This document shows, in pieces, positions 67-27,028 of a stretch of 28,205 nt of DNA. How positions within the stretch are numbered: the stretch's first letter is position 1; the number at the start of each line of letters is the position of its first letter. Below the pieces are notes generated by a model that did not search any database, had not been told where the DNA came from, and saw nothing but the letters and a program-made list of their open reading frames with translations. The translations under genes were made by a program, and so were the position numbers. Source of the DNA: Chlorokybus atmophyticus (Eukaryota; Plantae; Mesostigma and Chlorokybus algae); NCBI GenBank assembly GCA_009103225.1, contig RHPI01001960.1:1-28205 (forward strand). Direction: 5' to 3'.

Positions 67-516
67 GCTGTGCCGTCAACGGCACAACTGCTGCTGCTGC
101 TGTGCCGACGTCGGCAGCAGTGCTACTGTGCCGAAGTCGGCAGAAGCGCTGCTGTGCCGAAGTCGGCAGAAGTGCTATTGTGCCAAAAACGGCAGGATCG
201 TTGCTGTGCCGAAGACGGCAGAAGCGCTGCTGTGCCGAAGACGGTGGGGTCGCAGCTGTGCCGAAGACGGCAGAAGCGCTGCTGTGCCGAAGACGTTAGA
301 AGTACTGCTGTGCCGAGGTCGGCCCAACGCAGTTTGCCCCGTCAGCGGCAGTAACCAGCTTGTGCCGGCTGACAGATGGTGACTTACGATCCTCTGCCGG
401 CACAAAGCGACTTGTGCCGTCTTGGGAGAAGAACTGCTCGCAGAACTCGAAGGCAGGTGCCGCTGACGGCACAACTGGCTTGTGCCGAGAACGGATTCTG
501 CTGCAGGCGCCGTGTG
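67..516. mobile_element. Putative end of a CMC/CACTA-like DNA transposon (subterminal repeat array) abutting the truncated gypsy 5' LTR
   Basis: TGTGCCG/CGGCACA motifs occur in both orientations up to about 490. The segment ends ...GGCGCCGTGTG (CACACGGCGCC on the - strand) exactly where LTR homology begins at 517. The other end and any TSD are not in the window. Confidence 0.45.
99..332. repeat. Tandem array of about 9 copies of a 26-bp unit (GCTGTGCCGAAGACGGCAGAAGCGCT)
   Basis: Units start near 99, 125, 151, 177, 203, 229, 255, 281 and 307. Each has a TGCCG-N4-CGGCA mini-hairpin. Degenerate copies lie at 67 and 333-490. Confidence 0.9.
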
Positions 517-934
517 TTATCAAAGGCTATAATGCTTATTATACCTTAAATAAGTCCTTATGGGTGTAGAACCGCTTATTCAAACCTATTTGATGTCACA
601 TTTGATAAAATGTGATCACTATCTCGCTAGGTACCTTACAATAGGTATCTTTCGATAGGTACCTTATCGATAGGTACCTTATGTGAGCTATGAATGGCTC
701 ATGCTAGATTTCCTAACCACCCTATCTGTAGGGTCGATGTCTAGTTGTGAGCTAATTAGTGAGAGGTGTATATTTGATATACTTTTGATATAAAAGGTCA
801 CATCAAACTGATGCGAGGGGACTTTTAATTCTCTGCTCAGTGGCTGCCACGCCGCTAAAAGGCTTGTCATAGGCGGTGTGGGTGTTGGGGTAGAGGATTG
901 AAGGGGCATCACCGGCAACGGTGGTGCTGTTACA
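517..934 (+). repeat. Gypsy 5' LTR, missing about the first 105 bp
   Basis: Colinear with 11765-12182: 39 mismatches in 418 nt by manual count, no indels. Ends ...GCTGTTACA and is followed by the PBS. Confidence 0.93.
628..682. repeat. Four 14-15 bp repeats (TAGGTACCTTATCGA) inside the gypsy LTR
   Basis: Units at 628, 642, 656 and 671, with AGGTACCT and ATCGAT palindromes. Also present at 11876-11930. Confidence 0.85.
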
Positions 935-935
935 T

Positions 936-947
936 TGGTATCGGAGC
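936..947 (+). promoter_or_regulatory. Gypsy primer-binding site for the tRNA-iMet 3' end
   Basis: TGGTATCGGAGC one base after the LTR end. The canonical plant-type PBS is TGGTATCAGAGC (one G:U difference). Confidence 0.88.
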
Positions 948-1031
948 TTGGTTCTGCCGGTGGCCGACCATGACGAACCCCTGGGATAATTCCTCAGCTG
1001 AGATGGCAGCTGCCGAGGACGTCAGCGTTTT

Positions 1032-1130
1032 TAAGTGGGGGGGAGTGTCACGGGAAGGTACATTCAATTACCACAAATCGACCATAGAAGCACCAAGTCT
1101 TTTGTGGTCGAGTGGGCTGTTACATTGGTA
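1032..1130 (+). other. Internal PPT plus 79-bp mini-LTR (1046-1124) plus TGGTA in the gypsy leader
   Basis: 1032-1055 matches the true PPT/LTR-start junction at 6649-6672 at 22 of 24 nt. 1116-1130 is identical to the LTR-end/PBS junction at 926-940 (15 of 15). Confidence 0.75.
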
Positions 1131-1686
1131 CCCATGAGCTGGGGGGGTGACATGAGGACTTATAGTCAGCGACGACTTGCTTCCGGCCAATTGGAAGGCG
1201 GCGGCGGCACCCTCACATCGTCCACGTGCTCTCAAGTTCAAGTTTGCTTCCCTGCGCTACCTACACATCTCAGAAGCCATCACAGAGGCGGCGTGGGAGG
1301 TATTCCCCGTACACAGCATGCTCGCTTGCCAGTGCACGTGTGTGGGGGAATTTCATTTCATTTTCATGCACACATTAGTGACTGCTTGTCAACTGCTTGC
1401 TTACTTGCTTTCCAGTTGCTTGCCAATGCATGTGTGTGCGTGGCTTGCACATCATGTAATGATTGCCACCTGCTTCCCTGTTGCTTGCCTGTTTGCACAG
1501 CTGCTTGCCAGTGCATGCGTGTCATACATCACTGTTTGTCATTGTGCTTGCCAGTGCATGTCACAGTTGGTCACTGTACGGCTTGCCTGTTGCATGCCTG
1601 TGACGTGCCTGTGACCTGCCAGCTGCTTTTCTGGGTCGCTCGACCCGGGTCCGCAAGTTTCGAACCAAGCTGCTTCCAAGCCCTCC

Positions 1687-1830: not shown

Positions 1831-2026
1831 ACACAGGGTTGGGACCTTCTGGTCCCATTCAGACTTGTACAGTTTGGTGACACTTCAGATCAAGCCTTTC
1901 CTTGTTTTTGGACTGATTTGGAGTCTGTCTAGGACTTGAGCAACTAGGGGTCATTTTTATCCTCTCGTTGAACCTGGTCCATTGGTGAGGTTCTCACCAT
2001 CCCATTTTGCCTGTTTTTGCAGACAA

Positions 2027-3117
2027 ATGGAAGAGAACTCGGTGCCCACCTCGAAGGGGGAAAGCTCGCAAAAAAAGCAATTATCCCGTAAGGAGGAGTT
2101 TCCTTCCATGGAGGATATCGCCAATCCGGATGATGCACTTGATGAGTCTCATGCTGCTAAGGCTGTGGATTCGGTGGAACCAGACAGTCCACCTCCACAA
2201 GCAGGTCCTGAAATCTCAAGTCGCTTGACGAAACAGGAGCTAATGGACCACTTTCTTGGCACACATATGATGAGGAGCCTCGTGAGGCGATTGTCTCGCT
2301 CATTAACTTCCTCTTTCAAGTGGCGGAAACGATCTTAAAGCTCACCTTTATGGGGCAAGATTGGGAGGGATCAATGGGTGAAGGCAAACGTGTTTTAAAC
2401 ACGATCGAGCGCCTTTAACGCTCTGACAGCGGTTTACCTGTTCAAGCGCTCGCTCGTCCTGCCGAGTTTGTTCCCAACAAGCAAGCGGCAACTTTCGACT
2501 GGCTCATGAAGCTGAGACACTATGTCTACTCCCTTCACATTTTTAAAGAGGGGAAGTTGCTTTTAGCTGAGTTGCTGATTCTAAATGTTGCTATGGCAGA
2601 GTAGTACCGCCGTAAGCAACGTGATACGAATCTTTGGCGGGAAGTAAATCAATTGTGCTCTTTCATGGAGCAGCGCTATAGCGGCGCAGATCCCGCCCAG
2701 GTTGCTCGCAATCAGCTGCACAATGTGCATCAAAACGGGCGCCGAGTTCAGCTGTACATCCAGTCTTTGATCAGCAAGATCAATGCTAGCAAACTGCCCA
2801 TCAGTAATGCTGATCAGCTGGATATGTTCAGGCGTGGCTTAAACACAAATTTCGTGCAGCATGTGGCCGTCAACCCCGCGAGTTTGCCAGAGTGGGCCTT
2901 GATGGATTTGCCAATGCTGATGCGGATGGTTGCTGCTGTGGACAGTGTGAAGCGCTCGCATGCCAACATGCAAACCACAGCCAAAGAGGCAGCCCCGGCT
3001 TCAGCTGCAAAGCGCCTGGCCACTGACAACTTCTGCCAGAAGACAGATCATGAGGAGGCCAAGTGCTATGCCAAGCAAATCGCACAAAAGGCTAAGCAAC
3101 AGAAGGTCAAGAAATAG
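2027..3117 (+). pseudogene. gag: Gypsy gag, disrupted
   Basis: Retrotransposon-gag-like QNGRRVQLY...MFRRGL and a degenerate zinc knuckle (D)NFCQKTDHEEAKC. Stops and a frameshift lie between 2338 and 2610. Confidence 0.8.
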
Positions 3118-3161
3118 CAATTGTCCGTGGTTGGTAGCTTAGTCGAGCAGCACGACGTTAA

Positions 3162-3470
3162 AACTCTATACATTTTGATAAAGTTTCCTCTGTTTGCAAT
3201 GTATCAAAAGTGTGGACTGATGTGAGCACACCAACCGTGTTAGCAAACACAACTGGTTGTGTTTTAATCAATGTTCCATTCTCTGAGTTAGTAACTGCTG
3301 TTAAGCACTTACACAAGTTGCAACTACAACATGATATCAATGCATGCGTAGTTATCCCTTGATATCATGGCCCGTGGTTGCGGTGGTTGAAAGGGGGAGA
3401 AGTGATTATGCAACTCTCACGCAAAGATACAGGAACATCACCATTACAGGTGATCTTTATCAAGCCTGCT
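3162..3470 (+). pseudogene. Putative Dam/DIRS-type N6-adenine DNA methyltransferase-like domain between gag and protease
   Basis: The unlisted frame +3 reads NSIHFDKVSSVCN...GCVLINVPFSELVTAVKHL...NACVVIP*YHGPWLRWLKG...SPLQVIF. This matches the NPP[FWY] motif-IV context followed by A-x-x-V-x-P-x-W of this family. One TGA at 3360. Confidence 0.6.
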
Positions 3471-3480
3471 ACCAATCACG

Positions 3481-6400
3481 GCACCGACATTAGCTACATT
3501 TGATGGTCACTTAGTGCCACTCAAATGGAGATTTGAGAGTCAACTTATAGGCACACCATGTATAGCATTGATTAATACTGATGCAAACCATAACTTTGTT
3601 GAACATGCTTGGGTGAAACGTAATAACATACCTTTCACACCAGTCACGTCGTATGTGCGTGCTGATGGTTCCACCCTCAATGCAATCGGGGAGGTGAAGG
3701 GGCGTTGTTATTAATAGCCACAAGACTCAACTGAATTTCATCGTGGTGGATATAGGTATCCCCGGGGTGGATGTTGTTTTGGGTGAACAGTGGCACACCG
3801 AAGCAGGTTTGCAATTGGACTCTCGAGCAAATACGTGCACCCTTCGTAAGGGTAAACGGAAAAATAGCTAAAAGAGTTAGAGTTATTAGACAAAGGCTTG
3901 ATAACAAAGAGCATGTCTCCTTTTAGAGCACCAATTTTGTTTATGCCCAAAAAGAATGGCAAGCTACGCATGTGTGTTGGTTACCGTGCGTTGAACAAGG
4001 TAACTGTGAAAACAGATACCCTTTGCCTCGGATTGATGATTTGTTTGATAAGCTGTTAGGTGCAACAGTGTTCAGCACACTGGATCTGACCAGTGGTTAT
4101 CAAATCAAAATCCACCCGTCGGATATATAGAGTACTGCGATTCGCACCCCAATAGATCACTTTAAGTATAAAGTATTACCATTTAAATTTAACAAATGCA
4201 CCAGCTACATTTCAGGCAGCCTTGAACGCGGTATTTGCTGATGAATTGTACAAGTTTGTACTGGTATATCTTGACGACATTCTTGTGTTCAGTAAAACCC
4301 GGGAGGAACGCCACAGGCATGTGGAATTGGTTCAAGCTAAGTTACGCGAACACAAATTCTATGCCAACCTGTCCAAATGCAACTTTGCAAAAGATGAACT
4401 ACCCTTTTTAAGGCATGTGATTAGCAGAGAAGGATTGAACCCAGACCCTCAAAAGGTGTGTGCGGTGAAGGATTGGCCACCACTAAAGGATGTACATCAG
4501 TTACGTGCTTTCTTGGGGCTAGCCAATTATTTTCGCAAGTTCATGCGAGCATATTCTAGCATGGCAAATCCTTTAACATCTTTATTGAGAAAGAATGTTA
4601 AATTTGTGTAGACGGAGGCACACGAGGTTGCTTTTACACGCATTAAAGATGCATTAACACAAGCCCATGTGTTAGCCTTCGTTGATCACACCAAGCCTTT
4701 TGTGGTGATCAGTGATGCTTCTACCATTGGGTGTGGGGCAGTCCTTCTACAGGATGACGGACCATGTGCATATGAAAGCGAAAAGTTCATTCCTGCTGAA
4801 CGTAATTACACAACCACTGAGCAGGAATTGCTTGGGGTGGTGCGCGCGCTGCGCACATGGCGTTGCTACTTGGAAGGTGTGGAGTTTTTAGTGATTACTG
4901 ATCACAACCCGCGCACATCTTTCATACGCAACAGAACGTGTCGAGGCGGCAAGCTGGGTGGAATGAATTCATTTCTCGTTTCACGTTCACTTGACAATAC
5001 CGTCCGGGTCGCACCAATGTGGCGGAGCCACTAAGTTGTAGCCCTGCTCTTTTGGCACTTACGCGCTCTTGAAGTACGCGTAATGTGCAACAGCCTGAAG
5101 ATCCTTTCCTAAAGGAAGTGTCCACAGGTTATAACTCAGATGATTGGTTTAGCAGTCAAACCAACTTGCAACAGCTTGCTCCTGTTAGCAATCTGTGGTA
5201 TAAGGGGAGCAGTTGGCATTTCCTAACTCGGGCGACTTGCATAAGCAATGCTTACAATCAGTGCATGACCCGCCGTATGCTGGACATTTGGGGAAACACA
5301 AAATACTCAAAGCTGCGCAATAGTTATACTGGTGGCCGTCAAAGTCAGCTGATGTGGATCAATATGTTCGCACATGTGACGTGTGTCAACGTAATAAGCC
5401 ACTACGAAAAAACAAGCAGGATTGCTTAAACCATTGGCAATCCCAGAGCAAAAGTGGGATAGTGCCAGTATGAATTTGATTACTGACCTACCGGAAACAG
5501 CAGCCATATACACTGCTTTTGTGGTTTTGGTCGACCGTTTGACCAAAATGATGCATTTTGCCCCGTGTTGCACAACTGTAAGTGCACGGGACTTAGCACA
5601 TTTATTTGTGTCCACGGTCTTTCGAGTTCACGGTGTACCGCGTGAGCTTGTCACAGATTGTGATCCTCGATTTGTCTCCAAGTTTTTGGAGAGAAGTCTG
5701 TGAATTGTTGGGGGTAAAACAAAGAATGTCGATTGCTTTCCACCCGCAAACGAACGGGCAACCCGAACGATCAAACCAAGTATTGAAAGAAATGCTTCGC
5801 CACTATGTGGCTCCTGATCATTTTGATTGGACAGGTACTTGCCAATGGCAGAGTTCGCCGTGAACAATGCGTGGCAGGAAAGTGTAAAGGAAACCCCATT
5901 CTTCTTGAGTTATGGGATTCACTCGAACACACCGGCGTCATTGCGCGTACCTCGCAATGCTCTAACCGTACCAGCGGCAGCGAAGTTTGCCACTGCTATG
6001 CAGGAACATTTGGCTCGAGCCAAGCTATGTCAGTAAAAAGCACAAGACAGGCAAAAAGCTTATGCTAATACACATCGAAAAATGGCCAATCTCGATGTCG
6101 GCGATAAAGTTTTGCTAAACGCAAAAAACATAATCGTCAAAGGTACGGGTGCCCGCAAATTGCTGCCCCGATGGTTAGGTCCGTTCTCTATCATTGATAA
6201 AGTTGGTACGCACGCTTATCGACTGCAATTTCCCCCAAGTGTGCGTATACACAATGTGTTCCATATGGAACTTGTTGAAACCTTACCGCTCAGACGGTAT
6301 ACACAGCCTCCACCACCGCCAGTTGAGGTGGACAGCGAAACCGAATACGAGGTGGAAGCTTTATTGAACCATAAGTTAAATAGTCGAGGACCCGCAACTT

Positions 6401-6519
6401 GCTATTTGGTGAATTGGAAAGGGTATGGCCCAGAACATAACAGTTGGGAGCCCGACATGCATCTTACGCACTGCCGCGAGTTGCGTCGAGCTTACTGGGA
6501 TTCACGTTCTGTCCCGTAA
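3481..6519 (+). pseudogene. pol: Gypsy pol (protease, RT, RNase H, integrase, chromodomain) with many frameshifts and stops
   Basis: Protease ALINTDANHNF (from LIDTGA). [36 protein letters not shown]. RNase H SDASTIGCGAVL, NYTTTEQELL. Integrase HDPPYAGH...CDVC, MNLITDLP, FHPQTNGQPER. Also GPF. Confidence 0.95.
6343..6519 (+). other. Chromodomain at the integrase C-terminus
   Basis: EYEVEALLNH...YLVNWKGYGPEHNSWEP, a canonical (group I-like) chromodomain with aromatic residues kept. Confidence 0.92.
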
Positions 6520-6649: not shown

Positions 6650-6662
6650 AAGTGGGGGGGAA
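6650..6662 (+). promoter_or_regulatory. Gypsy polypurine tract
   Basis: AAGTGGGGGGGAA directly before TGTAAC, the LTR start. Confidence 0.88.
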
Positions 6663-6694
6663 TGTAACGGGAGCAATAATAATGGGGGTACTAC
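6663..6694 (+). repeat. Gypsy 3' LTR, first 32 bp (before the copia insertion)
   Basis: Starts TGTAAC after the PPT, inversely complementary to the 5' LTR end GTTACA. Confidence 0.82.
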
Positions 6695-7096
6695 TGTTGA
6701 GAAGCAAGCATGCAAGTGAAAAGGGCAAGCAATGACACACAGGAGAAGGCAACACACTTCCCGATTTATTATCAACAGACCGCGGGGTTATATACCCGCC
6801 AGTCAGTACACAGTTTGTACACACTGCTGGTCTACATGCAACAGCGTCCGATATACTGAACCATATCCTACGCTGTAAGATGTGCCACGTAGCTAACTTG
6901 ATAAGCTTTGTAACAAGCTATGCCACGTCCTATAAGACTGAGTATCCTAGGAGATATGACGATTCTCCTAGGACCCTTCTCTGCAGTCCGCGCCAGGACC
7001 TTCATGTCCGGAGTCTTCGAGGTCCTCCCATCGAGGTCCCTTCTCTTCTCTCTTGTATGCAGGGCAGGCTGACCGGATGTAGGAATATCTTCAACA
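6695..7096 (-). repeat. Copia 3' LTR (402 bp)
   Basis: TG...CA ends; 9 mismatches against 11285-11686 (about 97.8%). AATAAA on the - strand at 6765-6770. Confidence 0.97.
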
Positions 7097-7105
7097 CTCC
7101 CACGC
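7097..7105 (-). promoter_or_regulatory. Copia short polypurine tract
   Basis: GCGTGGGAG directly before the 3' LTR on the - strand. Confidence 0.6.
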
Positions 7106-7141
7106 GGGCAGCTTGGCCTCCAACGCTTGGTCTTCTTTCAC

Positions 7142-10100
7142 CTAAGCACATATGCCGAGTCCCTTGCAACATGCCTTGAACTTCAGCGGTGACAGTGGCT
7201 TCGTCATGAAGTCCGCGAGCATGTCTTCCGTATTGCAATATTGGAACTCAACCTCCTTGCGTGTGACTCTGTCTCGCACAAAGTGATGCATGACATCAAT
7301 GTGCTTTGTCCTTGTCGAGGTGATGGGGTGCTTCAGCAACTTAATGGCGCCTTGGTTGTCGCAGTTGATCGTGATGCACGCCATTGGGTGCTCCAGATCT
7401 GCCATCAGCTTGCGAAGCCATAACGCCTCCTTTACTGCAGCCGATGCTGCCATGTACTCCGCTTCCAAAGTGGATGCTGCTGTTGTAGGTTGCAGCCTAC
7501 TGTTCCAGCTCACCACGCCTCCATTCAACTTAAATACGTAAGCCGTAGTGGACCTCCTGCTGTCGAGGTCGCCTGCAAAGTCTGCGTCGCAGTAGCCCTC
7601 CATCTCTGTGCTCCCGCAACCAAACTTTATGCCAACACCTGTGCTTCCAGCCACGTAGCGCAACACTCCCTTCGCGGCACGCCAATGCTCCATGCTTGGT
7701 GCTGACATGTAGCGCGCAAGCACTCCAACATAGGGGTACTGAGCCTTGTCGAGTATCTCCTCATCCTTTGCTTTGACGAGGTTGATGCCGAGTGCCAATG
7801 GAGTAGACTTGGTCTTTGCTTCATTGAGTCCAAACTTTGTGACAAGTCGTTTCACCATCTGCTCTTGGCTGATCTTGATTGTGCGTGCTGCTCTGTCACG
7901 CTCTATCACCATGCCAAGAAATAACTTGACCTCTCCAAGATCGCGCACTGCGAATGCTTGCTGTAGTCCGTTCTTTGTCTCCTTCAGGTCTTCAATTCGC
8001 TTGGCCGTGACAATGATGTCGTCCACATACACGAGCAAGTAAACCTTCTTTTCTTCATGGATGAAGAGCCCCGGATCCGCTGAGGATGCTTTGTAGCCGA
8101 GTTTCTCCAACTCTTTCGTGAGGCGAATGTGCCACACACGTGGTGCTTGTCGCAGCCCATACAAAGCCTTGATCAACTTGCAAGCTATGCCTGGCTCCCC
8201 TTCTGCGTAGCCTGGTGGTTGCTTTGTGTAGATCTCTTCCTCCAGCTCTCCGTAAAGGAAAGTAGTCTTCACATCAAGGTGGTGACACTCGAGGTCTTCA
8301 GCAGCAACCATGGCGATCAATGTGCGGAAGGTTGCATGCTTACTTGCAGGTGCAAACACTTCATTAAAATCCACACCTTCTTGTTGCAAAAATCCCTTTG
8401 CCACCAACCTTGCCTTGTAGCGCTCGATGTTGCCTTGACCATCACGCTTCACCTTGAACACCCACTTGACCGGAATGGGCTTCACACCTTGCGGGGGCTT
8501 CTCCAACACCCATGTGTTGTTGGCATGGAGTGATGCAATCTCATCATCCATAGCTCGCTGCCATTGTTCTGCATCTGGTGCTCGCAATGCCTCCTCGTAG
8601 GTGCTTGGTTCTTCACTCTCGTCATTGTGCACACTAGCGATGTGTGCCTTGTAGAAGTCAGGTGCTTGTCTTTCCCTCACTGGGTAGCGTCGAGCTTGCT
8701 CCTGCTGCTTCTGCTTCTCGCCTGCTTCAGATGAGCCCTGCTCTTTATTGATGACTGATGCCTCGCCTTCAACCTCTTCTCTGCTTGAAAGCTCTTCAGG
8801 TTGTGCTTTGTCATCTTCATCTTGAGGGTAGAAACCTTCTTCAGCTTCAACTTGTGATGAGCCTTCGTGGAACACGACTTCTCTGCTCACCACAATCTTG
8901 CGCGTGTCCTCCAGTAGGACCTTGTACGCCTTTGAGCCTGGTTCGTAGCCAACGAAGATGCCCTTCTTGCTGACCGGCTCCAACTTGTGTCGCAATTGAC
9001 TTGGCACAAGTGCATATGCCACACATCCGAACACACGCATGCCACTCACATCTGGCGCTTCACCGTAAAAGAGCTCCCACGGAGTCTTTTGCTCAGAGCT
9101 TATCGGTGAACGGTTGCGGATGTAGTTGGCAGTGAGAACGGCCTCTTTCCACAGACTGTCCTCTAACTTGGTGTCATTGAGCATGGCTCGAACACGCTCC
9201 AACAACGTTCGGTTGAGACGTTCAGCTGCTCCATTCTGCTGCGGTGTGTATGGTGCTATTGTCTCATGCCGTATGCCTTTGCTGGCGATGAACTCTTTGA
9301 GCTGGGCGTTAATGTACTCCCATCCTCGATCACTTCTCATTGCTTTCATCTTCTTGCCCGATTGAATCTCAAGCAATGCAATGACTGTACGCACAGCTCC
9401 AGCGACTTCTGACTTTTGAATCAAAGGGAAGACGATGGAAAGCTTGCTGTAGTCGTCGAGGAATGTTGCAAAGTACCTTACCCCTCCTTTCGCCACAATG
9501 CGCATAGGCCCGCAAACGTCCATGTGCACAAGCTCGCAGGGATGTTTGCTACTTGAAGAAGATGATGAGAACGGCATGCGATGCTGCTTGGCCAACACAC
9601 AGGGTTTACAGAGCGTAGTTGAAGACGCTTGAAAATCTTCCTTGCTCCCAGTAATGCCCTTCACCATGTCTTCAGCGACCAGGCGTGTGAGGTTGCGTTA
9701 GCCCGAATGCCTGGACCTTCGATGCCAAAGCTCAGCCGTCTCCTTCTCCTTCACAATCATGGCCTTGCTGCCATGAGTCTGCTCCACAATGTAGAGCCCT
9801 CCTCGTTGGGTGCCGACCATGTACTCGACCCCATCCATGCGTACGGAGCAGCGTCCCTCCCGGATCACTATCTCAGCTCCCACGCGCTCAGCAACTCTCA
9901 TAGAAAACAAGCTTGCAGCAGCTCCAGGTACGTGCAATACTTCACGCAGTACCACCTCTCTCTCACCATCACTAATCTTGCATTGAAGCCTCACTTCACC
10001 AACTCCTATTGCTTCCAACCCGTGACCACTAAAGCCTTCCACCTTCCTTGTGGTTAACATCTTCCTGTAGTTCTCCATCACCTCCTTGTGCGGTGTGAGA

Positions 10101-10961
10101 TGCTGGTCACAGCCTGAGTCAAATGCCCATGATGTTGTATCAAACTTTCTTGAGGCAGTAAATGCAACACCCTTTTCTTTGCGTTGAGCGTTGCTATTGG
10201 TGCCTGCTTCAGATTGCTCTCGTTGGCGCTTACGACAATCCTTTGAGATATGTCCTTTAATACCACAATAGTGGCATGTGAGATTCTTGAACTTTGAGTT
10301 GCTGCCTTTCGCCTTGTTCTTGTCTTCGTAGTTGCTTAATTTCTTGTATTTGTCTCGTGCGTAGAAGGCCACAGAGTCCGCTTGCTCTTCCTTCTTTGAG
10401 ACGCGTTGCTCCACAGTGAGCAACTTGGGTAGCATCTCGTCTAGGGTTAGCTCCGATGACGATGTCTCGAGCAGAGTAGCGACAACTTCGTACTCTAATG
10501 GCAGTCCTGCAACAATCGCCAATACGACCTCCGTCTCTTCCATCTTGTGGCCGACGTTGATGAGGTCCGCCCACAGCTCTCTCGCACGTGCAACATATTT
10601 TGTGACCGGCTCGGCCGTCTCTTTACTGAAGCGCGCTTAGCTGCTTGCGTAATTGTATCTTTCAGGCGTTGTTCTTGGCTTGAAATATGGCTGCAAGCTT
10701 CTCCCAAGCTTGTCTGCCATCTTCACATGCTGTGAGCATGGGAAAGTGATGTGGCTTGCAGTTAAGCACCATCAAGGAATGTGCTTCAATTGAGTGTTCA
10801 AGCCAGATGCTTTCTTCTCCTGCTCTTGGTGCAGATGCCTTCGGGTCAACATACTTCCACATCTTCTTGTGGATAAGTAGTGCCTTCATTTCTACGCACC
10901 AAGTGCTGAAGTTGTTTATGTTCAGCTTTGTGATCAGCCCTTTATCGTAGCTTACCTCCAT
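7142..10961 (-). pseudogene. gag-pol: Copia gag-pol polyprotein with two premature stops (10662, 9698), a frameshift near 10624 and an in-frame deletion near 7730
   Basis: NFSTWCVEMKALL; knuckle CHYCGIKGHISKDC; protease FDSG; WHRRSRH...CKPC; integrase HMDVCGP/RSDRG/AAERLNRT; RT KARLVAKG, LYGLRQAP, YVDD; RNase H YCDADFAGD, EAEY, CDNQGA. Confidence 0.96.
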
Positions 10962-11271
10962 CTTTGCCGCGCCTGCTTTCTTCTTGCAGTTAGCACTTGA
11001 GACTTGCTTTGATAATCTTCCCGTGTTGTGACTTGAGTGACTTTGTTGACTTCAGTAACTTTAATCTACACTTCACTCTTGAGCGACGTCAATGACTTCG
11101 GTGTTGAATGACTTCGGTCTTCACTTCACTCTTCATCGCCTTCAGTCGTGAGTAACTTCGGACTTCTCTTCACTCTTCAGTCTTGAGTAACTTCGAGCTT
11201 CTCTTCAATACACTTTGTCACTTTTCTTCACTTCGCTTTCTTTCTCTTTCTCACACTCTTCACGCGTAGTG

Positions 11272-11284
11272 TGGGCCCATAACC
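11272..11284 (-). promoter_or_regulatory. Copia PBS matching the internal (anticodon arm) region of tRNA-iMet
   Basis: GGTTATGGGCCCA directly after the 5' LTR with no TGG/CCA, the same type as Drosophila copia. Confidence 0.88.
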
Positions 11285-11686
11285 TATTGAGAAGCAAGCA
11301 TGCAAGTGAAGAGGGCAAGCAATGACACACAGGAGAAGGCAACACACTTCCCGATTTATTACCCACAGACCGCCGGGTTATATACCCGCCAGTCAGTACA
11401 CAGTTTGTACACAGTGCTGGTCTACATGCAACAGCGTCCGATATACTGAACCATATCCTACGCTGTAAGATGTGCCACGTAGCTAACTTGATAAGCTTTG
11501 TAACAAGCTATACCACGTCCTATAAGACTGAGTATCCTAGGAGATATGACGATTCTTCTAGGACCCTTCTCTGCAATCCGCGCCAGGACCTTCATGTCCG
11601 GAGTCTTCGAGGTCCTCCCATCGAGGTCCCTTCTCTTCTCTCTTGTATGCAGGGCAGGCTGACCGGATGTAGGAATATCTTCAACA
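11285..11686 (-). repeat. Copia 5' LTR (402 bp)
   Basis: Matches 6695-7096; the terminal CA has mutated to TA. Confidence 0.97.
11378..11384 (-). promoter_or_regulatory. Candidate TATA box in the copia LTR
   Basis: TATATAA on the - strand, flanked by GC-rich inverted bases, about 17 nt upstream of AATAAA. The copy in the other LTR is at 6788-6794. Confidence 0.5.
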
Positions 11687-12182
11687 ATTGCTATCTCAAT
11701 AACACGTTCTGTATGAATAAGTATTTAAATATGCTTATCTATACCTCTTTCTACCGTTCCTCGCTTATTAAAGGCTATGATGCTTATCATAGCTTAAATA
11801 ACTCCCAATGGGTGTAGATTCGCTTATTCAAGCCTATTTAATGTCACATTTGATTAAATGTGATCACTATCTCGTTAGGTACCTTACGATAGGTATTTTT
11901 CGATAGGTACCTTATCGATAGGTACCTTATCTAAGCTGTGATTGGCTCACGCTAGATTTCCTAACTACCCTATCTGAGGGGTCGATGTCTGAATGTGAGT
12001 TAATTATTAAGAGGTGTATAGTTGATATACACTTGATGTAAAAGGTCACATCAAACTGATGTGAGGGGACTTTTAATTCTGTGCTCAGTGGCGGCTACGC
12101 CGCTAAAAGGCTTGTCATAGGCGGTGTGGGTGTTGGGGTAGAGGATTGAAGGGGCATCACCGGCGACGGTGGTGCTGCTACA
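11687..12182 (+). repeat. Gypsy 3' LTR, remainder after the copia
   Basis: 11765-12182 aligns with the 5' LTR and ends GCTGCTACA. The assignment of 11687-11764 is inferred. Confidence 0.9.
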
Positions 12183-18289: not shown

Positions 18290-21260
18290 TCAATGTCGAT
18301 GTTGATTGATGAAAAAGTTCTCAACTCCGTCCTCAGCACTGAAATCGGGCACAATGTGCGCTACCCTCTCTATGCACCCTAGAGCTACAACATCGTACCA
18401 ATCAGCTCCCTGCCTCTGTGCCCACTTGAGTCGTCTCTGACCCAGGTGCGGCACAACCCTCCCGAACTCCACATACCAGCGCACAAGTGCACACATGTGC
18501 CACTCGCGCCGTGTGTTTGCCATCAGAAAGAGCAAGCGCACTTGTCCATACCACTTCACATCGTTCCCGTTCCCGGCATCAACTCCGCGCACAACCACAT
18601 CGTCGAAAACCGGGTTGTAGTAGCTGCAAAAATTGGCGCGAAGCATGGAGCAGCCACTCCGTCCTCGACTAGCGGCTGCAGCTGTAGGAGAAAGTCGCAC
18701 TGAGTTGTACACATAGACCTGCTCAACACACAACATCAACATTGTAAAGCGTTTCCACACAGTAGAGATAGCGTGCACATATGTATGCACATGCACGCGC
18801 AGCCGCATGCGCACGCGCACATGCAAAAAGTCATGTATGCAAGAACCGCCACACCCACGAACAGCCACATGTGCATGTGCCAGCCAATCCCAATTACTTG
18901 TTTCATTTACATCTGCTAGTACCTTATCACCAAGAATGCATGGAAGATTGTCCCATAGTGCAGCATCTCCTCTCACGCCTCGACGGCCTTCAAGTTCCAG
19001 CAGATACCTTCTTGCTGCGAGTGGTAGATGCACGAGCTCGGGCTGCTCTTGTAAGCGTTTGATTGAAGCAACATCCGCTGGCTGCCCCTCTCTAAGCCCT
19101 TGCAAGTCGAGGACTTTGCGGCGGCTACTAATGGCATGGTCCCCTAGACCATCCGGCTGCAACACAACAAGAGCACAATGCATGCTTAGTTCACGCTGAG
19201 AGTGTACTAGTAGTCTAGACACGAGGTCATACGACAGATTGCACAAGTACCGTTTGTATGTGACGTGCTTTGTTTCGTTGCTTAGGATGTTCATGCCTTG
19301 GTCGGCTCACTGCATTCCAACTGCGTCTTACATCTCCGAGCGCCGAGCCTAAGCTTTGACGATGGACAACACGCCGGACCATCTGCGCGCATTGGAGAGC
19401 GTCTGTTAGTGTCAACATCAAAGCTATCATCATGTGTGACTCAACTGCACATACACGCACTCACGCGCATTGTTGCACACCGTGTGCACAAGGCATCGTG
19501 GGCTCGTGGACGCATGTGCATGCGGGTGCCACCCGCATGCACATGCGTCCACGAGCAGTAGAGATAATGAGAGAGTGCAGCGCAGACAGTAGAGCACCAA
19601 AAAAATGAACCTAGCAGCAACATACAGCGCATACACATGCTCTCGCGCACCAAGTTGAAATGCAACGTGTGTTGTACCTGCTGCATGACTGTACGCGCAT
19701 GCTTGTTTGTTGCAGAGTACGGCTTGTGTGCCACATTCTTGTGATCTTCTTCCCAACTCTGAGCGTCGTACTCATCCAAAGGCCCCAACCGCTTGATGCA
19801 CTGCTCGTAATGCTTGAGTGCATGGTACTTCACAGTGTTCCAGTTCGACAACTGGTATGGGCCAAGACGTTCTTTCGCCAGCTGGTCGAATCTGCATTCA
19901 GATGTTTAAATACGCATGCATGAGTAAATGCAAGTCAGATTACAAGCTCATACAAGCTAGTACTAATGGCTTTTGTGTATACAACCGTGACCTTATGTGC
20001 AACAAGCGCTGTGACAACACTTGGTGCGAAGCATATGAACAGACTGCAAGCAAAGCTATGACTTATGGTATATAGCAAATTAAACTTACTTTGCTCTTGC
20101 TTGTGCCAGCTTTGCGAGCGTCAAGTCTGTGTGCGGACCAGCGTGCACACCCTTTCGATTGGCAATCATGTAGAACTCGCTGAAGGCAACAAAGAGTGGA
20201 GTGACCTCATCCACCAAGTTGTCACCATGCGATACCAGAACTGCCATGTAGGTTGCGTAAGGCATCACCTGTAACAATGCACAGGCTTGAGATTGTGGCA
20301 ACATCTTTCAAATGAGTATGCATGCCAACTAGCTGTCATGGAAGTTTGGCACACCTGCATGGTTGCTGCGTGCTCATTGGCGGTGACCGCAACGTCGGTT
20401 GTGAGATAACCAAAAGGAATGCGCAGAGCTGGACACTTCATTACGTCCAGCCTTGCTTCAATGGTGCGGATGGAGTCACCTGTGGGATCTGTGTGTACAT
20501 GTCACTTAATGGTGCATGCTAATGTTTATTGTGACAGAAGTTGATCGACAAGCAACCTTTAAGGAGAAGCTAGACTACAGCTACCTTTATCTTTGAGGTA
20601 CTCAACAAGTAATGTGGTTAGGTCTTTGTACACGCCTAGCACTGCTTGATGCATCCTTTCCAAAGTGATAGCTAGATGAGCATTACCAATGGGCAGGTTT
20701 TCGAATGCAGGTCCCACAATGAGCACTGCTAACAAAAAGTAATTTGTCAGTACATCATCTATGATCAGAACTGTTGCAATAGGCACAACACAAGCTTGCG
20801 CATCTTCACCACTTGGCTGTATGACACTTTTGACAACATCGCCTGTATGTTGCATAAAGGTTGACCAGACTGCATGGCACCAACAGCCATTGCCCATGTG
20901 TGCTTCATTGCCTCAATTGTGCGCTCCTCATGTACACTTGACAAGTCGCTCAACTCTTCTCTCGGACACATACACCAATGGCATGGATAGTTGCAGCCAT
21001 TGGTGTCCTTGTGACAAAGGAGCTTGCAGCCTTCGGGCCAGTCCGTAATCCAGGATGCGAGGAAGGGATACACGAGCTGCCTTTCGCCGTTAGCATTGAC
21101 CAAGACTTCACCGCTGCAACTCATCACATGCTTATCAACATAACGTTCAAGCAGGCCTGCAATGCAACACGTCTCATCGCAAGACTAGCTGCAAGTGCGC
21201 GCGCGCGCATACGCGCACACGCACGCGCACGCGCATGCGCACTTGCTGCTACTAGTAGTC

Positions 21261-21339
<79 letters not shown>

Positions 21340-22963
21340 NAGCTGCAAGTGCGCGCGCGCGCATACGCACACGCGCATGCGCACTTGCTGCTACTAGTAG
21401 TCTTGCAGAGAGAGAGAGAGAGAGAGAGGACTTACTTGGCCATTGCTTTAATGGGGCCGAGGACAATTTCAAGACAACGATGCAAAAGATCCAGTTTGGC
21501 CCACTTGAATTGTCTGGATTTTCTGCCAAGACCTCGCTTGGGGAGAGGCCGCAAGGTAGGCAAATAACCAACCAGCCATTTGGCGTCTTTATTTCTAAAG
21601 CGCTTTGCGATATTGAACAAGCTGACTGAAATTGGCCAGCAAGATTGTCCTTTCTGATTAACGGGAGTACTATCGCTGAAAAAAACGAGCATTGCACATG
21701 TGGCACCCTCTGGAAGCAATGCCTGTTACAAGCCACATCAGCAACCACACGGATACAACTGTGGCCTTTCACATAACGACATGTAAGCAATACCAACAAC
21801 ATACACCACATATGTACACGAGCACAATCAGCTAGCAGTACCTGAACATCGTTCCATGATATGCAGGTGTCTGGGCTTGCATAAATGCGACCTTCGCCGG
21901 CAGTCAGCACCTTTGAATACAGCACGAAGTCCACCTGGAAGCGATTGTCACACCACATCTCAGCAAGCACTTCACCCATGTTGCGGTGGGTGAAGTAGAC
22001 ATCTTGTCCATACTCTGTCCGCGTTAGGTTGGTCCTCACCCAACCCTGTCACATTATGCAAACCAACTTAGACGTACTCCCGTGCACACGTGTAAGTGCA
22101 CGCATGCGTGCGTACGCGTGTGCATGCGTATGCGAGCACGCGCGTGTATGTATGCGTGCGTGGGTTCTATGTGCATGCGTGCCTGCGCATGCATATGCGT
22201 GGGAGCGTGTGCATATGATGGTGTGCATGCTTGCCCGCATGCCATTGCATTTAAGGTGAGGGGGACATACGCATGCGTGCAATGCATGTGTTAAAATGTC
22301 CACAAGTGACCTCACGAAGACCAAGAAGAATATGTCACCTGTTGTACTTGCGCCTCAGCGAAAGCTTTACAATTTTGCGCGGTGCGAACTAGCAGTTGCT
22401 CAGGGTGGAAGGACGGATGCCGAAGCAGTCGCAATAATCTATTGATGTCTGCATCTGATTGCCCTCGCCCTCCTCGACTTTCAAAGCAAAACCTCACAAA
22501 CTCTGCAGTCACAGCAAAAGGTCCTAGTTGCTGCCTAAGTTGTTGCTGCCGAGCTGCCTCCTGATCCGCGTCGCGGTCTTGTGTAGTTGCGAGATGCAAA
22601 GCATCATCAATGCCTTGGAATGTCCAGATGGGTGCATCTGGTAGGTTGACATCGCCAGACGGGTTGGCTGCAGGAGGTGAGCGCGGACTTTGACTGTTAC
22701 TGTGGACTTGGTGTGTTGCATGATGGTTGCTTGGGTCTTGCGGCATCCAGTCAGCTGCTCTATCAACTTGCTCATCTAGAACTCTCTCCACATGTTGAGT
22801 AATTGACACAGGCAGTTGTGCGTGTAGACGGTCAAGATCCAGGTCGTCGGCGATATCGGTAGCAGCTCGCACGCGACAACGCGCGCTGAAGTTGACATGT
22901 GCAGCTCTTGCGCAATGCGTCGTAAAACTCTCGGCCACATGCATTGCATGCAAACCCAGCCAT
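18290..22963 (-). pseudogene. Plavaka-family transposase, multi-exon, with 1-2 frameshifts
   Basis: N-terminal zinc finger MAGFACNACGREF(frameshift)...H...C; GPF...INRLLRLL; YFTHRN...RIYAS...W; LPEGATCAMLVFFSDST...WPISVSLFNI...WLVGYLP; VYPFLASWITDWPE; ERMHQAVLGV; NTVKYHALKHY...LGPLDEYDAQSWEEDHK; WYGQVRLLF...LVRWY...YDVV...AHIVPDF...FFIN. In-frame introns at 22046-22338, 21723-21841 and 21114-21435. Confidence 0.88.
21187..21429. repeat. (AG)n microsatellites within a local duplication spanning a single N (intronic)
   Basis: The AGCTGCAAGTGCGCGC...GTCTTGC(AG)n block starts at both 21187 and 21341; N at 21340. Confidence 0.9.
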
Positions 22964-24246: not shown

Positions 24247-26631
24247 GCAGGGGACGCTGGCTTAACCTCCAAACCTCAGTTAACTAGTAGGCAAGCTGAG
24301 GAAGCTGAGGACGCTGGCATGGCCTCCCAATCTCAGCGTCCGACCAGAAAGCAAGCACAGCAGGCGATAGCCAACCTGACGCAGCAGCTTGCCAGTCGAA
24401 AACGCAAGGCACCGAATGACAAGGAGGTAAGCAGCAGTTCAACACGCTTGCACACATGATGTCTTGCTGCGCTGGTTGTATTCAGTGCGTTATATGCACA
24501 AGACAGTTGATTACAGCTGTAACGTGGTGCTGCGAGAGCTGCCAAGTTTGCGGCTGCACTCTCAGTTGGCTTCAAGCCAGTCCATTGTGCACCTGCGCTT
24601 GACTGCAAGCTGCAATGTTTGCAAGTTGCCAAGCTTACAGTTGATGCTAGTTCTATAGAACTATCGGCTAACTTACTACCTGCAGGCTACCCAAGCAGTG
24701 ACTCAACCAAAGCAAGCTCCATCAGCACTGATCGAGGCTTCACCCTTGCCTGCAACAACCACCACAACAGCGTCGGCCCGACGCACGGCACCAGCCAAGT
24801 CTACCAGCCAACTACGACGTATAGGTACACAAGCAGCCATACCAGTACTAGTAGTTGATCGGAGCACTCTCACCAATGCATTTCCTAGTAGGCTAACAGC
24901 TGCTGCTATTTGCAACCTTGCAACATTGAATCTCACATTGCTCTACAGGTCTAGTGCTGTAACGTATGAGTTGCATGACACTGCGGTTGTGCCGTGGGCA
25001 GTTAGCGATGACGAAGACGATGACATGGATGAGGAGAGGAACGCCCACAATGACTTGGACGATGAACTTGATGATGACGACGACAACATTAATCACGATG
25101 ATGTTGCCGGTCATCCTCCGGCAAGCAACGCACGCGCCTTTCTTGATGACATAGCTCAAGGTGCGGTTGACATGAACATAGTCTATGGCGCTCGGCGCAT
25201 GTCACACTATCAGTAGTAATTGCTTGATAACGTGCGCTTGCAGTTGGTGGCAACCAACTGCCTGTGGCTGCGCGTCAACGCGCGCAAAGCACTAGACCGC
25301 CACAAGTGACCAGCGAGGTGCTGCTTCCAGCGCACACCCACATCAGGCCCATCGCCGCTCAGATTACAGCGGCGCGCGATCAAGCGCAACTTCATAGCAG
25401 TGCACGCCGTGACGTTGCAGCACGCGTGCCTACTAGTGGTGCAACCGAGCAGCGTAGCGCGCGATCTGCGTCGAGCTTGGATGTACTCAAGGACTACCTC
25501 AATACGGCAGGCAGCAATGAAATCCGCAAAGCTTTCGAGTACTTCTACCAGCTGCCTATGCTCTACAACGGTAAACCCACAGCCGCGCGGCTTGCACAGC
25601 TTGCGGCATTGAAGAAAGGTAAGGGCATGTACGCGTGTATGTCTTGAACTCAACTCGTTGACGTGCAAGGTTGCATTCAATGTTTGGAACTTTACAGATA
25701 GCGCATACCGCCGCCATGGACGCTTAGAATGGGGTGACGAGCGGTTCGGACGTTTGCTGCAAAAAGTTTGGTGCTCGCAGCGAGGAGCAGGTACGCGGTG
25801 CAGAGCTTCACATTCTGTTGCAGTTTTAGAATCTACGACCTTCATGTGGTAGGTGATGTACATTAACTAATATATCGCACAAAGGTCCAGCTGACATGTG
25901 GAGCTGGCGCTGGACCTTTTCAACTCTGATGTTTGCAACCTTCACTCTACATGAAAGTCCAACGCCAGCTGCACAATGTGGAGCTGGCGCTGGACCTTTC
26001 CAGCTCTGATGCTTGCAACCTTCACATCATTTCAAGGTCAAGCGCCAGCTCCACATGTGCAGCTGGCGTTGGACCTTTTCAGCTCTACTGTTTGTGTTTA
26101 CATGAAGGTCCAGCGCCAGCTCCACATGTGGTCTCCCCAGGTTGGCGCTGGACCTTTTCAGCTCCGTTGTTTGCCACTTTCATTCGTGCCACTTTCATGC
26201 AATCCAATATCTGCCCTTAGGTGATGTGGAGCTGGCGCTGGACAGCGAGGAAAGAGGAAAGCGAGGCGACGCCGTTGCGCGTAGCTGTCACAAAGGAGCA
26301 GCTGGCTTTCACAGTCGCTGTGGTAAGTACGTGATGCATGCTTGATTGAAACAAGGTTAGCAAAGGAGTCACAACACTTTGTAGGTGCGATTGCTCGCGT
26401 GCGAATGAACTTCATGCACTCATGCTTCTTGCACAGGTGCTTCAGTTCCTTGTCAATCAAACCATTCAAGACAAAAAAGACCCTGTTGCCTACTTCAACA
26501 AGGTTGTCCAGTATGTTAACAACACCCACATGGACACGCTTGAGATCGTTAACGCGCCGGCACTGCCTACTGTTGAAGGCCTGCCGGGAGGGGAAGGCGA
26601 TCTTGAAGACGCGGAAGACTTCACCATTTGA
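24247..26631 (+). CDS. Spliced orphan gene divergent from the Plavaka transposase; 5' end uncertain; one frameshift
   Basis: Phase-consistent exons 24247-24426, 24686-25160, 25244-25618, 25698-25790, 26221-26322 and 26437-26631, provided one extra A is removed from the A5 run near 25761. Basic/acidic low-complexity N-terminus and helical C-terminus (...RHGRLEWGDERF...EEQVMWSWRW...VLQFLVNQ...). Confidence 0.55.
25882..26156. repeat. Intronic tandem array of four ~44-bp palindromes, period about 75 bp
   Basis: Consensus AAGGTCCAGCGCCAGCTCCACATGTGGAGCTGGCGCTGGACCTT at 25882, 25955, 26034 and 26105. Confidence 0.92.
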
Positions 26632-26871
26632 GTGGTAGTTGTGCTTGCATGCAGTAGCAGTTGATTGTGTTAGCTTGTGTCGTACGGCAGAACGGCACAA
26701 CCCTTGTAAAACCCCACAAGGGCACACCTGCAGAGTTCTACTAGCGTTGTGTCCTAGTAGACCAGTGTGGACTTGAACTTCCAGCGCTCACATTGAGCGC
26801 GACATGTATTGTAACCACAATGTTCTTGATTGGCACTTTGCATTCACATTGAACAGGTACTTATTCACTAT

Positions 26872-27028
26872 GACTGCAACGTGCATTCTACATCATGTCA
26901 ACGACCGTTGATGTTAGGTTAAGTGATGCTGCAACAACACAGCATCAATGCGACTGCTATGTGCATTCTACAGCATGTCAACGACCATCAAGTCAACGTC
27001 AAGTGATGCTGCAACAACACAACATCAA
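26872..27028. repeat. Two-copy tandem repeat of an 80-bp unit
   Basis: GTGCATTCTACA at 26881 and 26961; AAGTGATGCTGCAACAACAC at 26921 and 27001. Confidence 0.85.

What the first reader, a model, noticed from the sequence alone, without database searches (positions are those of the whole stretch)
3162..3470. Hidden adenine-methyltransferase-like domain between gag and protease of a chromovirus
Seen: the ~400 nt between the gag stop and the protease is not spacer. Frame +3, absent from the ORF track, reads ~100 codons with a single TGA: ...FDKVSSVCN...GCVLINVPFSELVTAVKHL...NACVVIP*YHGPWLRWLKG...SPLQVIF. Known: Dam-like N6-adenine MTases carried by DIRS retrotransposons have a D..N motif, then [W/Y]xNPP[FW], a helix, and A/I-x-x-V-P-x-W...W; in DIRS the domain lies after RT/RH, and it is not part of the textbook gypsy layout. 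Inferred: this gypsy lineage carries a DNA-modifying (or NVPF-variant, possibly inactive DNA-binding) domain in its polyprotein, which could mark or protect its cDNA or interfere with host 6mA/5mC. Related placements may already exist in algal gypsy entries, so novelty is unverified.
Basis: partly seen in the sequence, partly recalled or inferred. Interest (0 to 1): 0.85.

Follow-up and report, generated by a model that had tools for sequence, protein, structure and literature searches.

The report
Worn-down methyltransferase domain in algal retrotransposon
A dead copy of a Gypsy-type jumping gene, likely from a green alga, carries a real but worn-down adenine-methyltransferase-like domain just before its protease; a 2026 preprint already described this design, but the altered, likely non-catalytic form seen here outnumbers the intact form among the relatives examined and mostly escapes standard domain searches.

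Summary
Frame +3 at 3162-3470 reads 103 codons with one stop, between gag and protease of a decayed chromovirus. Pfam misses it. A profile of 35 relatives, gathered by reverse transcriptase alone, scores it 20.1 bits against 7.4 for the best of 1000 shuffles. Natural relatives fold as class I methyltransferases; the top match is the RNA-cap enzyme PCIF1. The layout is known: bioRxiv 10.64898/2026.05.21.726589 describes a chlorophyte DAM-chromovirus clade, and this scan found the kind before on other DNA. The variant is what differs. The NVPF motif is unchanged in same-family contigs of two runs, while the stop is not shared. Of 51 assessable relatives, 40 carry the domain and 30 of those lack NPP[FYW]. 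Degenerate forms show relaxed constraint. Best reading: an inherited, likely non-catalytic methyltransferase-fold module at the front of Pol. Activity is untested, and the preprint's E. coli assay of representative eukaryotic domains was negative.

The parts
3162..3470 (+). Degenerate adenine-methyltransferase-fold (DAM/PF05869-like) domain at the front of Pol; frame +3, one stop at 3360-3362; it may begin as early as 3118
   Evidence: fold of relatives
3270..3281 (+). Motif IV equivalent, NVPF (canonical relatives have NPP[FY])
   Evidence: aligned to the NPP column; no difference listed in X1 or X2 contigs
3177..3179 (+). Asp that may be the acidic residue of the cofactor-binding motif (31 codons before the motif IV Asn; 35 residues in relative P0015)
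   Evidence: MAFFT column match only; unchanged in X1/X2; not aligned by the HMM
1940..3117 (+). gag, broken by stops and frameshifts; C-terminal part 2605-3117 ends after a decayed zinc knuckle and a basic tail
   Evidence: PF03732 E 7.8e-5; two gag relatives end at a similar place
3454..3714 (+). Aspartic protease-like frame, catalytic triad decayed in this copy
   Evidence: position and sequence read by eye; no Pfam hit; protease follows the domain in relatives
4156..5031 (+). Reverse transcriptase (C-terminal part) and RNase H
   Evidence: PF00078 E 5e-14, PF17919 E 4.5e-29
5398..5703 (+). Integrase core fragment
   Evidence: PF00665 E 0.005, below its cut-off
6037..6519 (+). Integrase SH3-like domain and chromodomain
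   Evidence: PF24626 E 5.8e-17, PF00385 E 4.1e-13
517..934 (+). 5' LTR (3' portion), followed by a primer-binding-site-like TGGTATCGGAGC at 936-947
   Evidence: 90.7% identical over 418 nt to 11765-12182; sequence
6650..6694 (+). Polypurine tract and start of the 3' LTR, interrupted by a copia insertion
   Evidence: sequence; boundaries inferred
11685..12182 (+). Remainder of the 3' LTR after the copia insertion
   Evidence: the start is inferred

Best explanation
The stretch encodes a degenerate adenine-methyltransferase-like domain at the front of the Pol protein of a dead chromovirus, likely inherited from an algal ancestor that had a catalytic-motif version and likely kept in this family as a non-catalytic module rather than as a working DNA methylase. 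Shown: homology, position before the protease, the NVPF state of the family, and decay of this copy. Predicted: class I methyltransferase fold, from models of natural relatives and not of the window peptide. Inferred: in active elements it would be made as part of Pol, packaged with the element's RNA, and cut free by the adjacent protease. There its retained core would bind the element's RNA or RNA-DNA intermediate, or serve as a folded spacer for Pol processing, under weaker selection than the catalytic form.
For: Homology 20.1 bits vs 7.4; better fit to the 24 degenerate than to the 11 canonical relatives, 20.2 vs 10.1 bits. NVPF is unchanged in contigs of runs X1 and X2, the stop is not shared, and length differences on either side put the domain in the protease frame in those contigs. 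Window vs contig differences, classed by hand: core 3255-3470 has 9 synonymous of 16 (expected share 0.23-0.31, p 0.004-0.028); the N-terminal, cofactor-binding half has 5 of 16 (p 0.32-0.51). The domain is less conserved than the protease in 6 of 8 degenerate pairs and more conserved in 6 of 6 canonical pairs. Motif IV varies freely among degenerate relatives. A model built only from 28 non-NPP[FY] rows still folds as a methyltransferase (pLDDT 85). Iyer et al. (PMC4738411, passages) judge the related DIRS domain likely inactive and possibly RNA-binding.
Against: The family keeps Asn, Pro and an aromatic residue in motif IV, and possibly the motif I Asp. Active rRNA adenine methylases KsgA/Erm carry N-[LI]-P-Y (recalled, no call), so NVPF need not be dead. 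Over the whole stretch the synonymous excess is marginal once transition bias is allowed (14 of 32, p 0.069), and the core/N-terminal split was chosen after seeing the data. Degenerate domains exceed the protease-RT linker in identity in only 6 of 8 pairs, mostly by a few points, so they may be near-neutral spacers. Pairs share members and are not independent. X1 and X2 show almost the same differences, so they count as one comparison. No binding or activity was measured.
Confidence: 0.55

Rival explanations
1. The family's NVPF domain is still an active N6-adenine methyltransferase that marks the element's cDNA or RNA-DNA hybrid, so that new insertions recruit host AMT1 and stay expressed (the preprint's model).
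For: N, P, F and the upstream Asp are unchanged in X1/X2; the core is under purifying selection; the preprint reports more 6mA and higher expression on DAM-LTRs in ichthyosporeans.
Against: The conserved first Pro of NPP is lost; the peptide fits degenerate relatives best; the N-terminal half looks unconstrained; representative eukaryotic domains gave no 6mA gain in E. coli.
Confidence: 0.15
2. The domain is an RNA-directed enzyme or reader of the PCIF1 or KsgA/Erm kind that methylates or binds adenine near the cap of the element's own transcript.
For: PCIF1/CAPAM is the top methyltransferase match for the NAPF relative P0121 (Z 11.4, rmsd 2.6, 136 aligned; T4 Dam 8.9, E. coli Dam 8.8). It is the only Foldseek hit at E<=0.001 for the degenerate model. 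Iyer et al. place the DIRS domain in the PCIF1 clade. It would explain the negative DNA assay.
Against: For the degenerate model PCIF1 (Z 8.6) is tied with KsgA/DIMT1 (8.1, 8.0), and T4 Dam is at 7.5. By sequence the canonical domains match phage DNA methyltransferases (phrog_111, E 2.8e-12), and no PCIF1 hit appears in a PDB sequence search. The domain is small and has no obvious cap-binding part. A shared fold shows no substrate.
Confidence: 0.15
3. The domain is a functionless vestige that only has to stay open and folded as a spacer between Gag and the protease.
For: Identity in degenerate pairs is close to that of the protease-RT linker; 11 of 51 assessable relatives show no detectable domain; motifs are lost in many ways.
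Against: The domain persists in 30 degenerate relatives spread over the RT tree, with conserved His-Tyr, Cys-Lys and Thr-Ser-Ala-Cys columns; the core shows a synonymous excess.
Confidence: 0.15

Closest known systems
Chlorophyta DAM-chromovirus-like clade of DAM-LTR retrotransposons (Fernandez-Moreno et al., bioRxiv 10.64898/2026.05.21.726589; text parts 1-4 of 5 read, figures and supplements not seen)
   Same: Ty3/Gypsy element with a chromodomain and a DAM-family domain; nearest named RT relatives are algal.
   Different: The preprint stresses a conserved Asn-Pro-Pro triplet and screened at E 1e-5; this domain reads NVPF and gets no Pfam hit. The main text never names gag, protease, PCIF1 or inactive forms; its Fig. 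2B may show the position.
Chlamydomonas reinhardtii reverse transcriptase Q84UZ3 / AAO73551.1 (recalled as REM1; the REM1 paper was not held)
   Same: The domain starts the Pol protein and is followed by protease and RT.
   Different: It has canonical NPPY and a PF05869 hit. REM1's integrase is truncated and reversed (PMC2774666, passage), whereas the window element has the usual order.
MT domain of DIRS retrotransposons (PF05869; PMC3783388 and PMC4738411, passages)
   Same: Same Pfam family in the canonical relatives; judged likely inactive by Iyer et al.
   Different: In DIRS it is listed after RT and RNase H in pol of a tyrosine-recombinase element; here it precedes the protease of a DDE-integrase LTR element. 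No DIRS sequence was compared directly.
PCIF1/CAPAM cap-specific adenosine methyltransferase (PDB 6irx, 6irv, 6irw)
   Same: Best structural match among methyltransferases for both models.
   Different: 12-16% identity; a far larger protein; no sequence-level hit; works on capped mRNA.

Membership tests
Ty3/Gypsy chromovirus | gag-PR-RT-RH-INT order with a C-terminal chromodomain, between LTRs | tested here: met
   the protease is assigned by position and by eye only
Chlamyvir clade (algal chromoviruses) | RT groups with Chlamyvir references | tested here: inconclusive
   No reference set was held; in a quick RT tree the window row lies among algal-like chromoviruses but in no starred group
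DAM-LTR retrotransposons (2026 preprint) | Domain homologous to the eukaryotic DAM family inside an LTR element | tested here: met
   transitive profile link to PF05869-positive relatives
DAM-LTR retrotransposons (2026 preprint) | Direct DAM profile hit at E<=1e-5 (the preprint's screen) | tested here: not met
   no Pfam hit at E up to 10 for this decayed copy
DAM-LTR retrotransposons (2026 preprint) | Asn-Pro-Pro catalytic triplet | tested here: not met
   NVPF in the window, unchanged in X1/X2
Chlorophyta DAM-chromovirus-like clade | Placement in that clade of the DAM tree; chlorophyte host | not testable with these tools
N6-adenine methyltransferases (class I fold) | Rossmann-like methyltransferase fold | tested here: inconclusive
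   met for natural relatives P0121 and P0010; the window peptide itself was not folded
N6-adenine methyltransferases (class I fold) | Acidic cofactor-binding residue after strand 1 | tested here: inconclusive
   Asp 3177-3179 on the conserved column by MAFFT, not aligned by the HMM
N6-adenine methyltransferases (class I fold) | SAM-dependent methyl transfer | not testable with these tools
   needs an assay
EpiLTR (DAM + DNMT + chromodomain) | Cytosine methyltransferase domain in the element | tested here: not met
   no such Pfam hit in the element frames scanned; the gag-protease gap is filled by the one domain, and pol ends with the chromodomain
DIRS retrotransposon | Tyrosine recombinase, no aspartic protease or DDE integrase | tested here: not met
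   rve, SH3 and chromo hits with direct LTRs

The most novel reading that the evidence does not exclude
Most algal chromoviruses carry a hidden pseudo-methyltransferase at the front of Pol: degenerate forms outnumber catalytic-motif forms about three to one and escape Pfam. The domain's real partner is the element's own RNA, as with PCIF1 or KsgA, rather than DNA. That would explain why it survives loss of the catalytic motif and why DNA assays of representative domains were negative.
Probability: 0.2. Interest if true: 0.62.

Novelty: new variant of a known kind. Interest (0 to 1): 0.3.

Why it matters
The 2026 preprint argues that LTR elements keep DAM domains to exploit host 6mA. If three quarters of the related chromoviruses keep the domain without its catalytic motif, the census is too low and catalysis on DNA cannot be the whole reason for retention. 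The mix of canonical and degenerate forms in intact Pol frames gives a natural series for testing substrate and function. The window copy itself is a dead insertion of no functional weight.

Tried and rejected
No genome is held for the window, so copies in the host genome could not be counted. Direct searches with the peptide found nothing: Pfam, PDB sequences, and proteins of 182-2000 residues (0 of 19 candidates; shorter proteins were not searched with it). The language-model look-alike search gave no result for this peptide, so that question stays open. Locus scans with alignment A1 confirmed 0 of 35 viral and 0 of 590 metagenome stretches. A second metagenome scan kept 79 loci, of which 2 carry a clear domain and 1 a weak one. 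In L007 the gag and pol frames overlap, and in L005 an upstream frame overlaps pol likewise, so these give no support for stop-codon readthrough as a general rule. No RNA holder was listed; that is no evidence on expression. Runs X3 and X4 covered only short RT pieces. The gag search of cluster representatives gave only 2 hits. The careful RT tree did not finish; the quick tree leaves the window row unplaced, so no count of independent motif losses is claimed. Within-cluster protein pairs (8) were too alike to inform. Rejected: chance spacer (shuffle controls); NVPF as decay of this one copy; DIRS or EpiLTR membership. Literature searches for a prior account of degenerate or PCIF1-like forms in LTR elements found none by title or listing; subscription journals, Repbase and the preprint's figures and supplements were not seen.

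Full report
Observation. It sits between the gag stop at 3115-3117 and a protease-like frame. The surrounding element is a Ty3/Gypsy chromovirus: Retrotrans_gag, RT, RNase H, integrase, SH3 and chromodomain hits occur in the usual order. The LTR pieces at 517-934 and 11765-12182 are 90.7% identical, and a copia element is inserted in the 3' LTR. The copy is full of stops and frameshifts, so it is dead. No genome is held for the window. A green-algal host is inferred only from the named RT relatives (Haematococcus, Chlamydomonas, also Closterium and Chara).

Is it a real domain? Direct searches fail: no Pfam hit at E up to 10, no PDB sequence hit, and none of 19 candidates among longer proteins. 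I therefore collected relatives by RT alone: 878 proteins passed and the best 120 were listed, of which 8 carry a precomputed PF05869 (Dam) domain. The window peptide's best matches among the 120 lie in the N-terminal region of Pol, before the protease (best E 3.9e-5). A profile of the 11 relatives with W-x-NPP[FY] finds the same domain in 37 of 120 proteins, but scores the window peptide weakly: 10.1 bits against 7.6 for the best of 1000 shuffles, and E 0.12 in a six-frame search. A profile of 35 relatives scores it 20.1 bits against 7.4 and makes it the top hit of the window (E 1.6e-4), aligned over profile positions 50-112 of 144. The 24 non-canonical relatives alone give 20.2 against 5.7. 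None of these profiles contained the window peptide. So homology holds for the core from motif IV onward, and the peptide belongs with the degenerate forms.

Is NVPF the family state? Two public runs hold contigs of the same family at about 90% identity across the whole element. They list no difference in the four NVPF codons or in the upstream Asp codon, and they do not share the stop. They carry length differences on either side of the domain that place it in the frame of the protease downstream and of gag upstream. X1 and X2 show almost the same differences and count as one comparison. Classing the listed differences by hand, and leaving out one compensating indel cluster, gives 14 synonymous of 32 over 3162-3470 (p 0.007 without and 0.069 with transition bias), 9 of 16 in the core and 5 of 16 in the N-terminal part. 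The split was chosen after seeing the data, and part of the difference is neutral decay of this copy. The result fits a coding region with a constrained core and a loose cofactor-binding half.

How common is the degenerate form? Of 123 proteins held, 107 aligned to the window RT over 200 residues or more, and 16 were dropped. Of the 107, 56 were too short upstream to judge. Of the 51 left, 10 had NPP[FYW], 30 had the domain without it, and 11 had none detectable. Pfam Dam matched 11 of 35 members of alignment A1 at E 0.01. Motif IV takes many forms among the degenerate rows, and the upstream acidic residue is kept in 22 of the 32 rows that cover it. Degenerate domains occur in long unbroken Pol frames with several cluster members. 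The domain is more conserved than the protease in 6 of 6 canonical pairs and less conserved in 6 of 8 degenerate pairs, where it exceeds the protease-RT linker in 6 of 8, mostly slightly (pairs share members). A quick RT tree scatters both states but does not place the window row.

Fold. The natural relative P0121 (NAPF motif, domain plus protease) folds at pLDDT 85. Its N-terminal domain matches class I methyltransferases, led by PCIF1/CAPAM (Z 11.4, rmsd 2.6, 136 aligned), then T4 Dam (8.9) and E. coli Dam (8.8) among many RNA adenine methylases. A model of the P0010 domain, built from 28 rows without NPP[FY], folds at pLDDT 85. It matches PCIF1 (Z 8.6), tied with KsgA and DIMT1, with T4 Dam at 7.5; PCIF1 is the only Foldseek hit at E 0.001 or better. 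By sequence, canonical domains match phage DNA methyltransferases (phrog_111), and P0121 gives no PCIF1 hit in the PDB. The window peptide itself was not folded.

Mechanism. Shown: homology, position, family motif, decay of this copy. Predicted: fold. Inferred: the domain is made at the front of Pol, packaged, and released by the neighbouring protease. In this family it most likely persists without catalysis, as a nucleic-acid-binding or structural module (0.55). Rivals are an active DNA methylase (0.15), an RNA-directed enzyme or reader (0.15) and a mere spacer (0.15). NVPF is not proof of inactivity, since KsgA/Erm enzymes work with N-[LI]-P-Y (recalled, from no call).

What is known. The bioRxiv preprint 10.64898/2026.05.21.726589 (text parts 1-4 of 5 and word searches seen; figures and supplements not seen) reports DAM domains in LTR elements, including a Chlorophyta DAM-chromovirus-like clade. 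It stresses the Asn-Pro-Pro triplet, screens at E 1e-5, and found no 6mA gain in E. coli. Its main text does not mention gag, protease, PCIF1 or inactive forms. Iyer et al. (PMC4738411, passages) put the DIRS domain in the PCIF1 clade and call it likely inactive. PMC3783388 (passages) describes the DIRS layout. Neumann et al. (PMC6317226, passages) define Chlamyvir, and their main text has no mention of methyltransferase. C. reinhardtii Q84UZ3 already has the canonical domain before its protease; that it is REM1 is recalled. This scan noted the same kind on other genomes four times; those notes are not independent evidence. Searches (listings) showed no account of degenerate forms in LTR elements.

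Verdict. A real feature and a known design. The worthwhile addition is that degenerate, Pfam-invisible versions appear to be the majority among related chromoviruses, and that the fold points to RNA methylases as much as to Dam. New variant of a known kind; interest 0.30.

Noticed in passing
window 3112-3123: The gag stop reads TAG CAA TTG, one base off the CARYYA readthrough context (PMC7026636, passage). In X1/X2 contigs the downstream domain lies in gag's frame and no Met precedes it, so Pol might be made by readthrough. Whether the TAG is shared could not be read, because it lies near contig ends and one difference was not shown; a single gag-pol frame, as in P0027, is equally possible.
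   Followed up: partly
window 936-1139: After the LTR and its primer-binding-site-like motif come about 100 nt, a polypurine tract (1033-1045), a short TG...CA unit (1046-1124) and a second primer-site-like motif: a tandem or miniature LTR arrangement. Contig depth is several times higher here in X1 and X2.
   Followed up: no
window 6695-11684 (minus strand): Nearly intact Ty1/copia element (850-aa and 311-aa frames, RVT_2 E 1.4e-67; LTRs 97% identical) inserted in the chromovirus 3' LTR, younger than its host element.
   Followed up: partly
window 20765-21722 (minus strand): Plavaka transposase fragments (PF18759, E 1.4e-10 and 7.2e-7), interrupted by (AG)n tracts.
   Followed up: no
window 70-367: Tandem array with a 26-nt period just upstream of the truncated 5' LTR.
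   Followed up: no
window 2000-2030: A pyrimidine-rich tract ending in CAG lies just before the likely gag ATG, like a splice acceptor, which suggests an intron in the leader (read by eye).
   Followed up: no
P0083 (relative): A canonical DAM-chromovirus Pol that also carries a PHD finger besides the chromodomain.
   Followed up: no
window 25894-26185 and 26865-27024: Two separate tandem repeats with a period of about 80 nt, the first with internal inverted copies.
   Followed up: no
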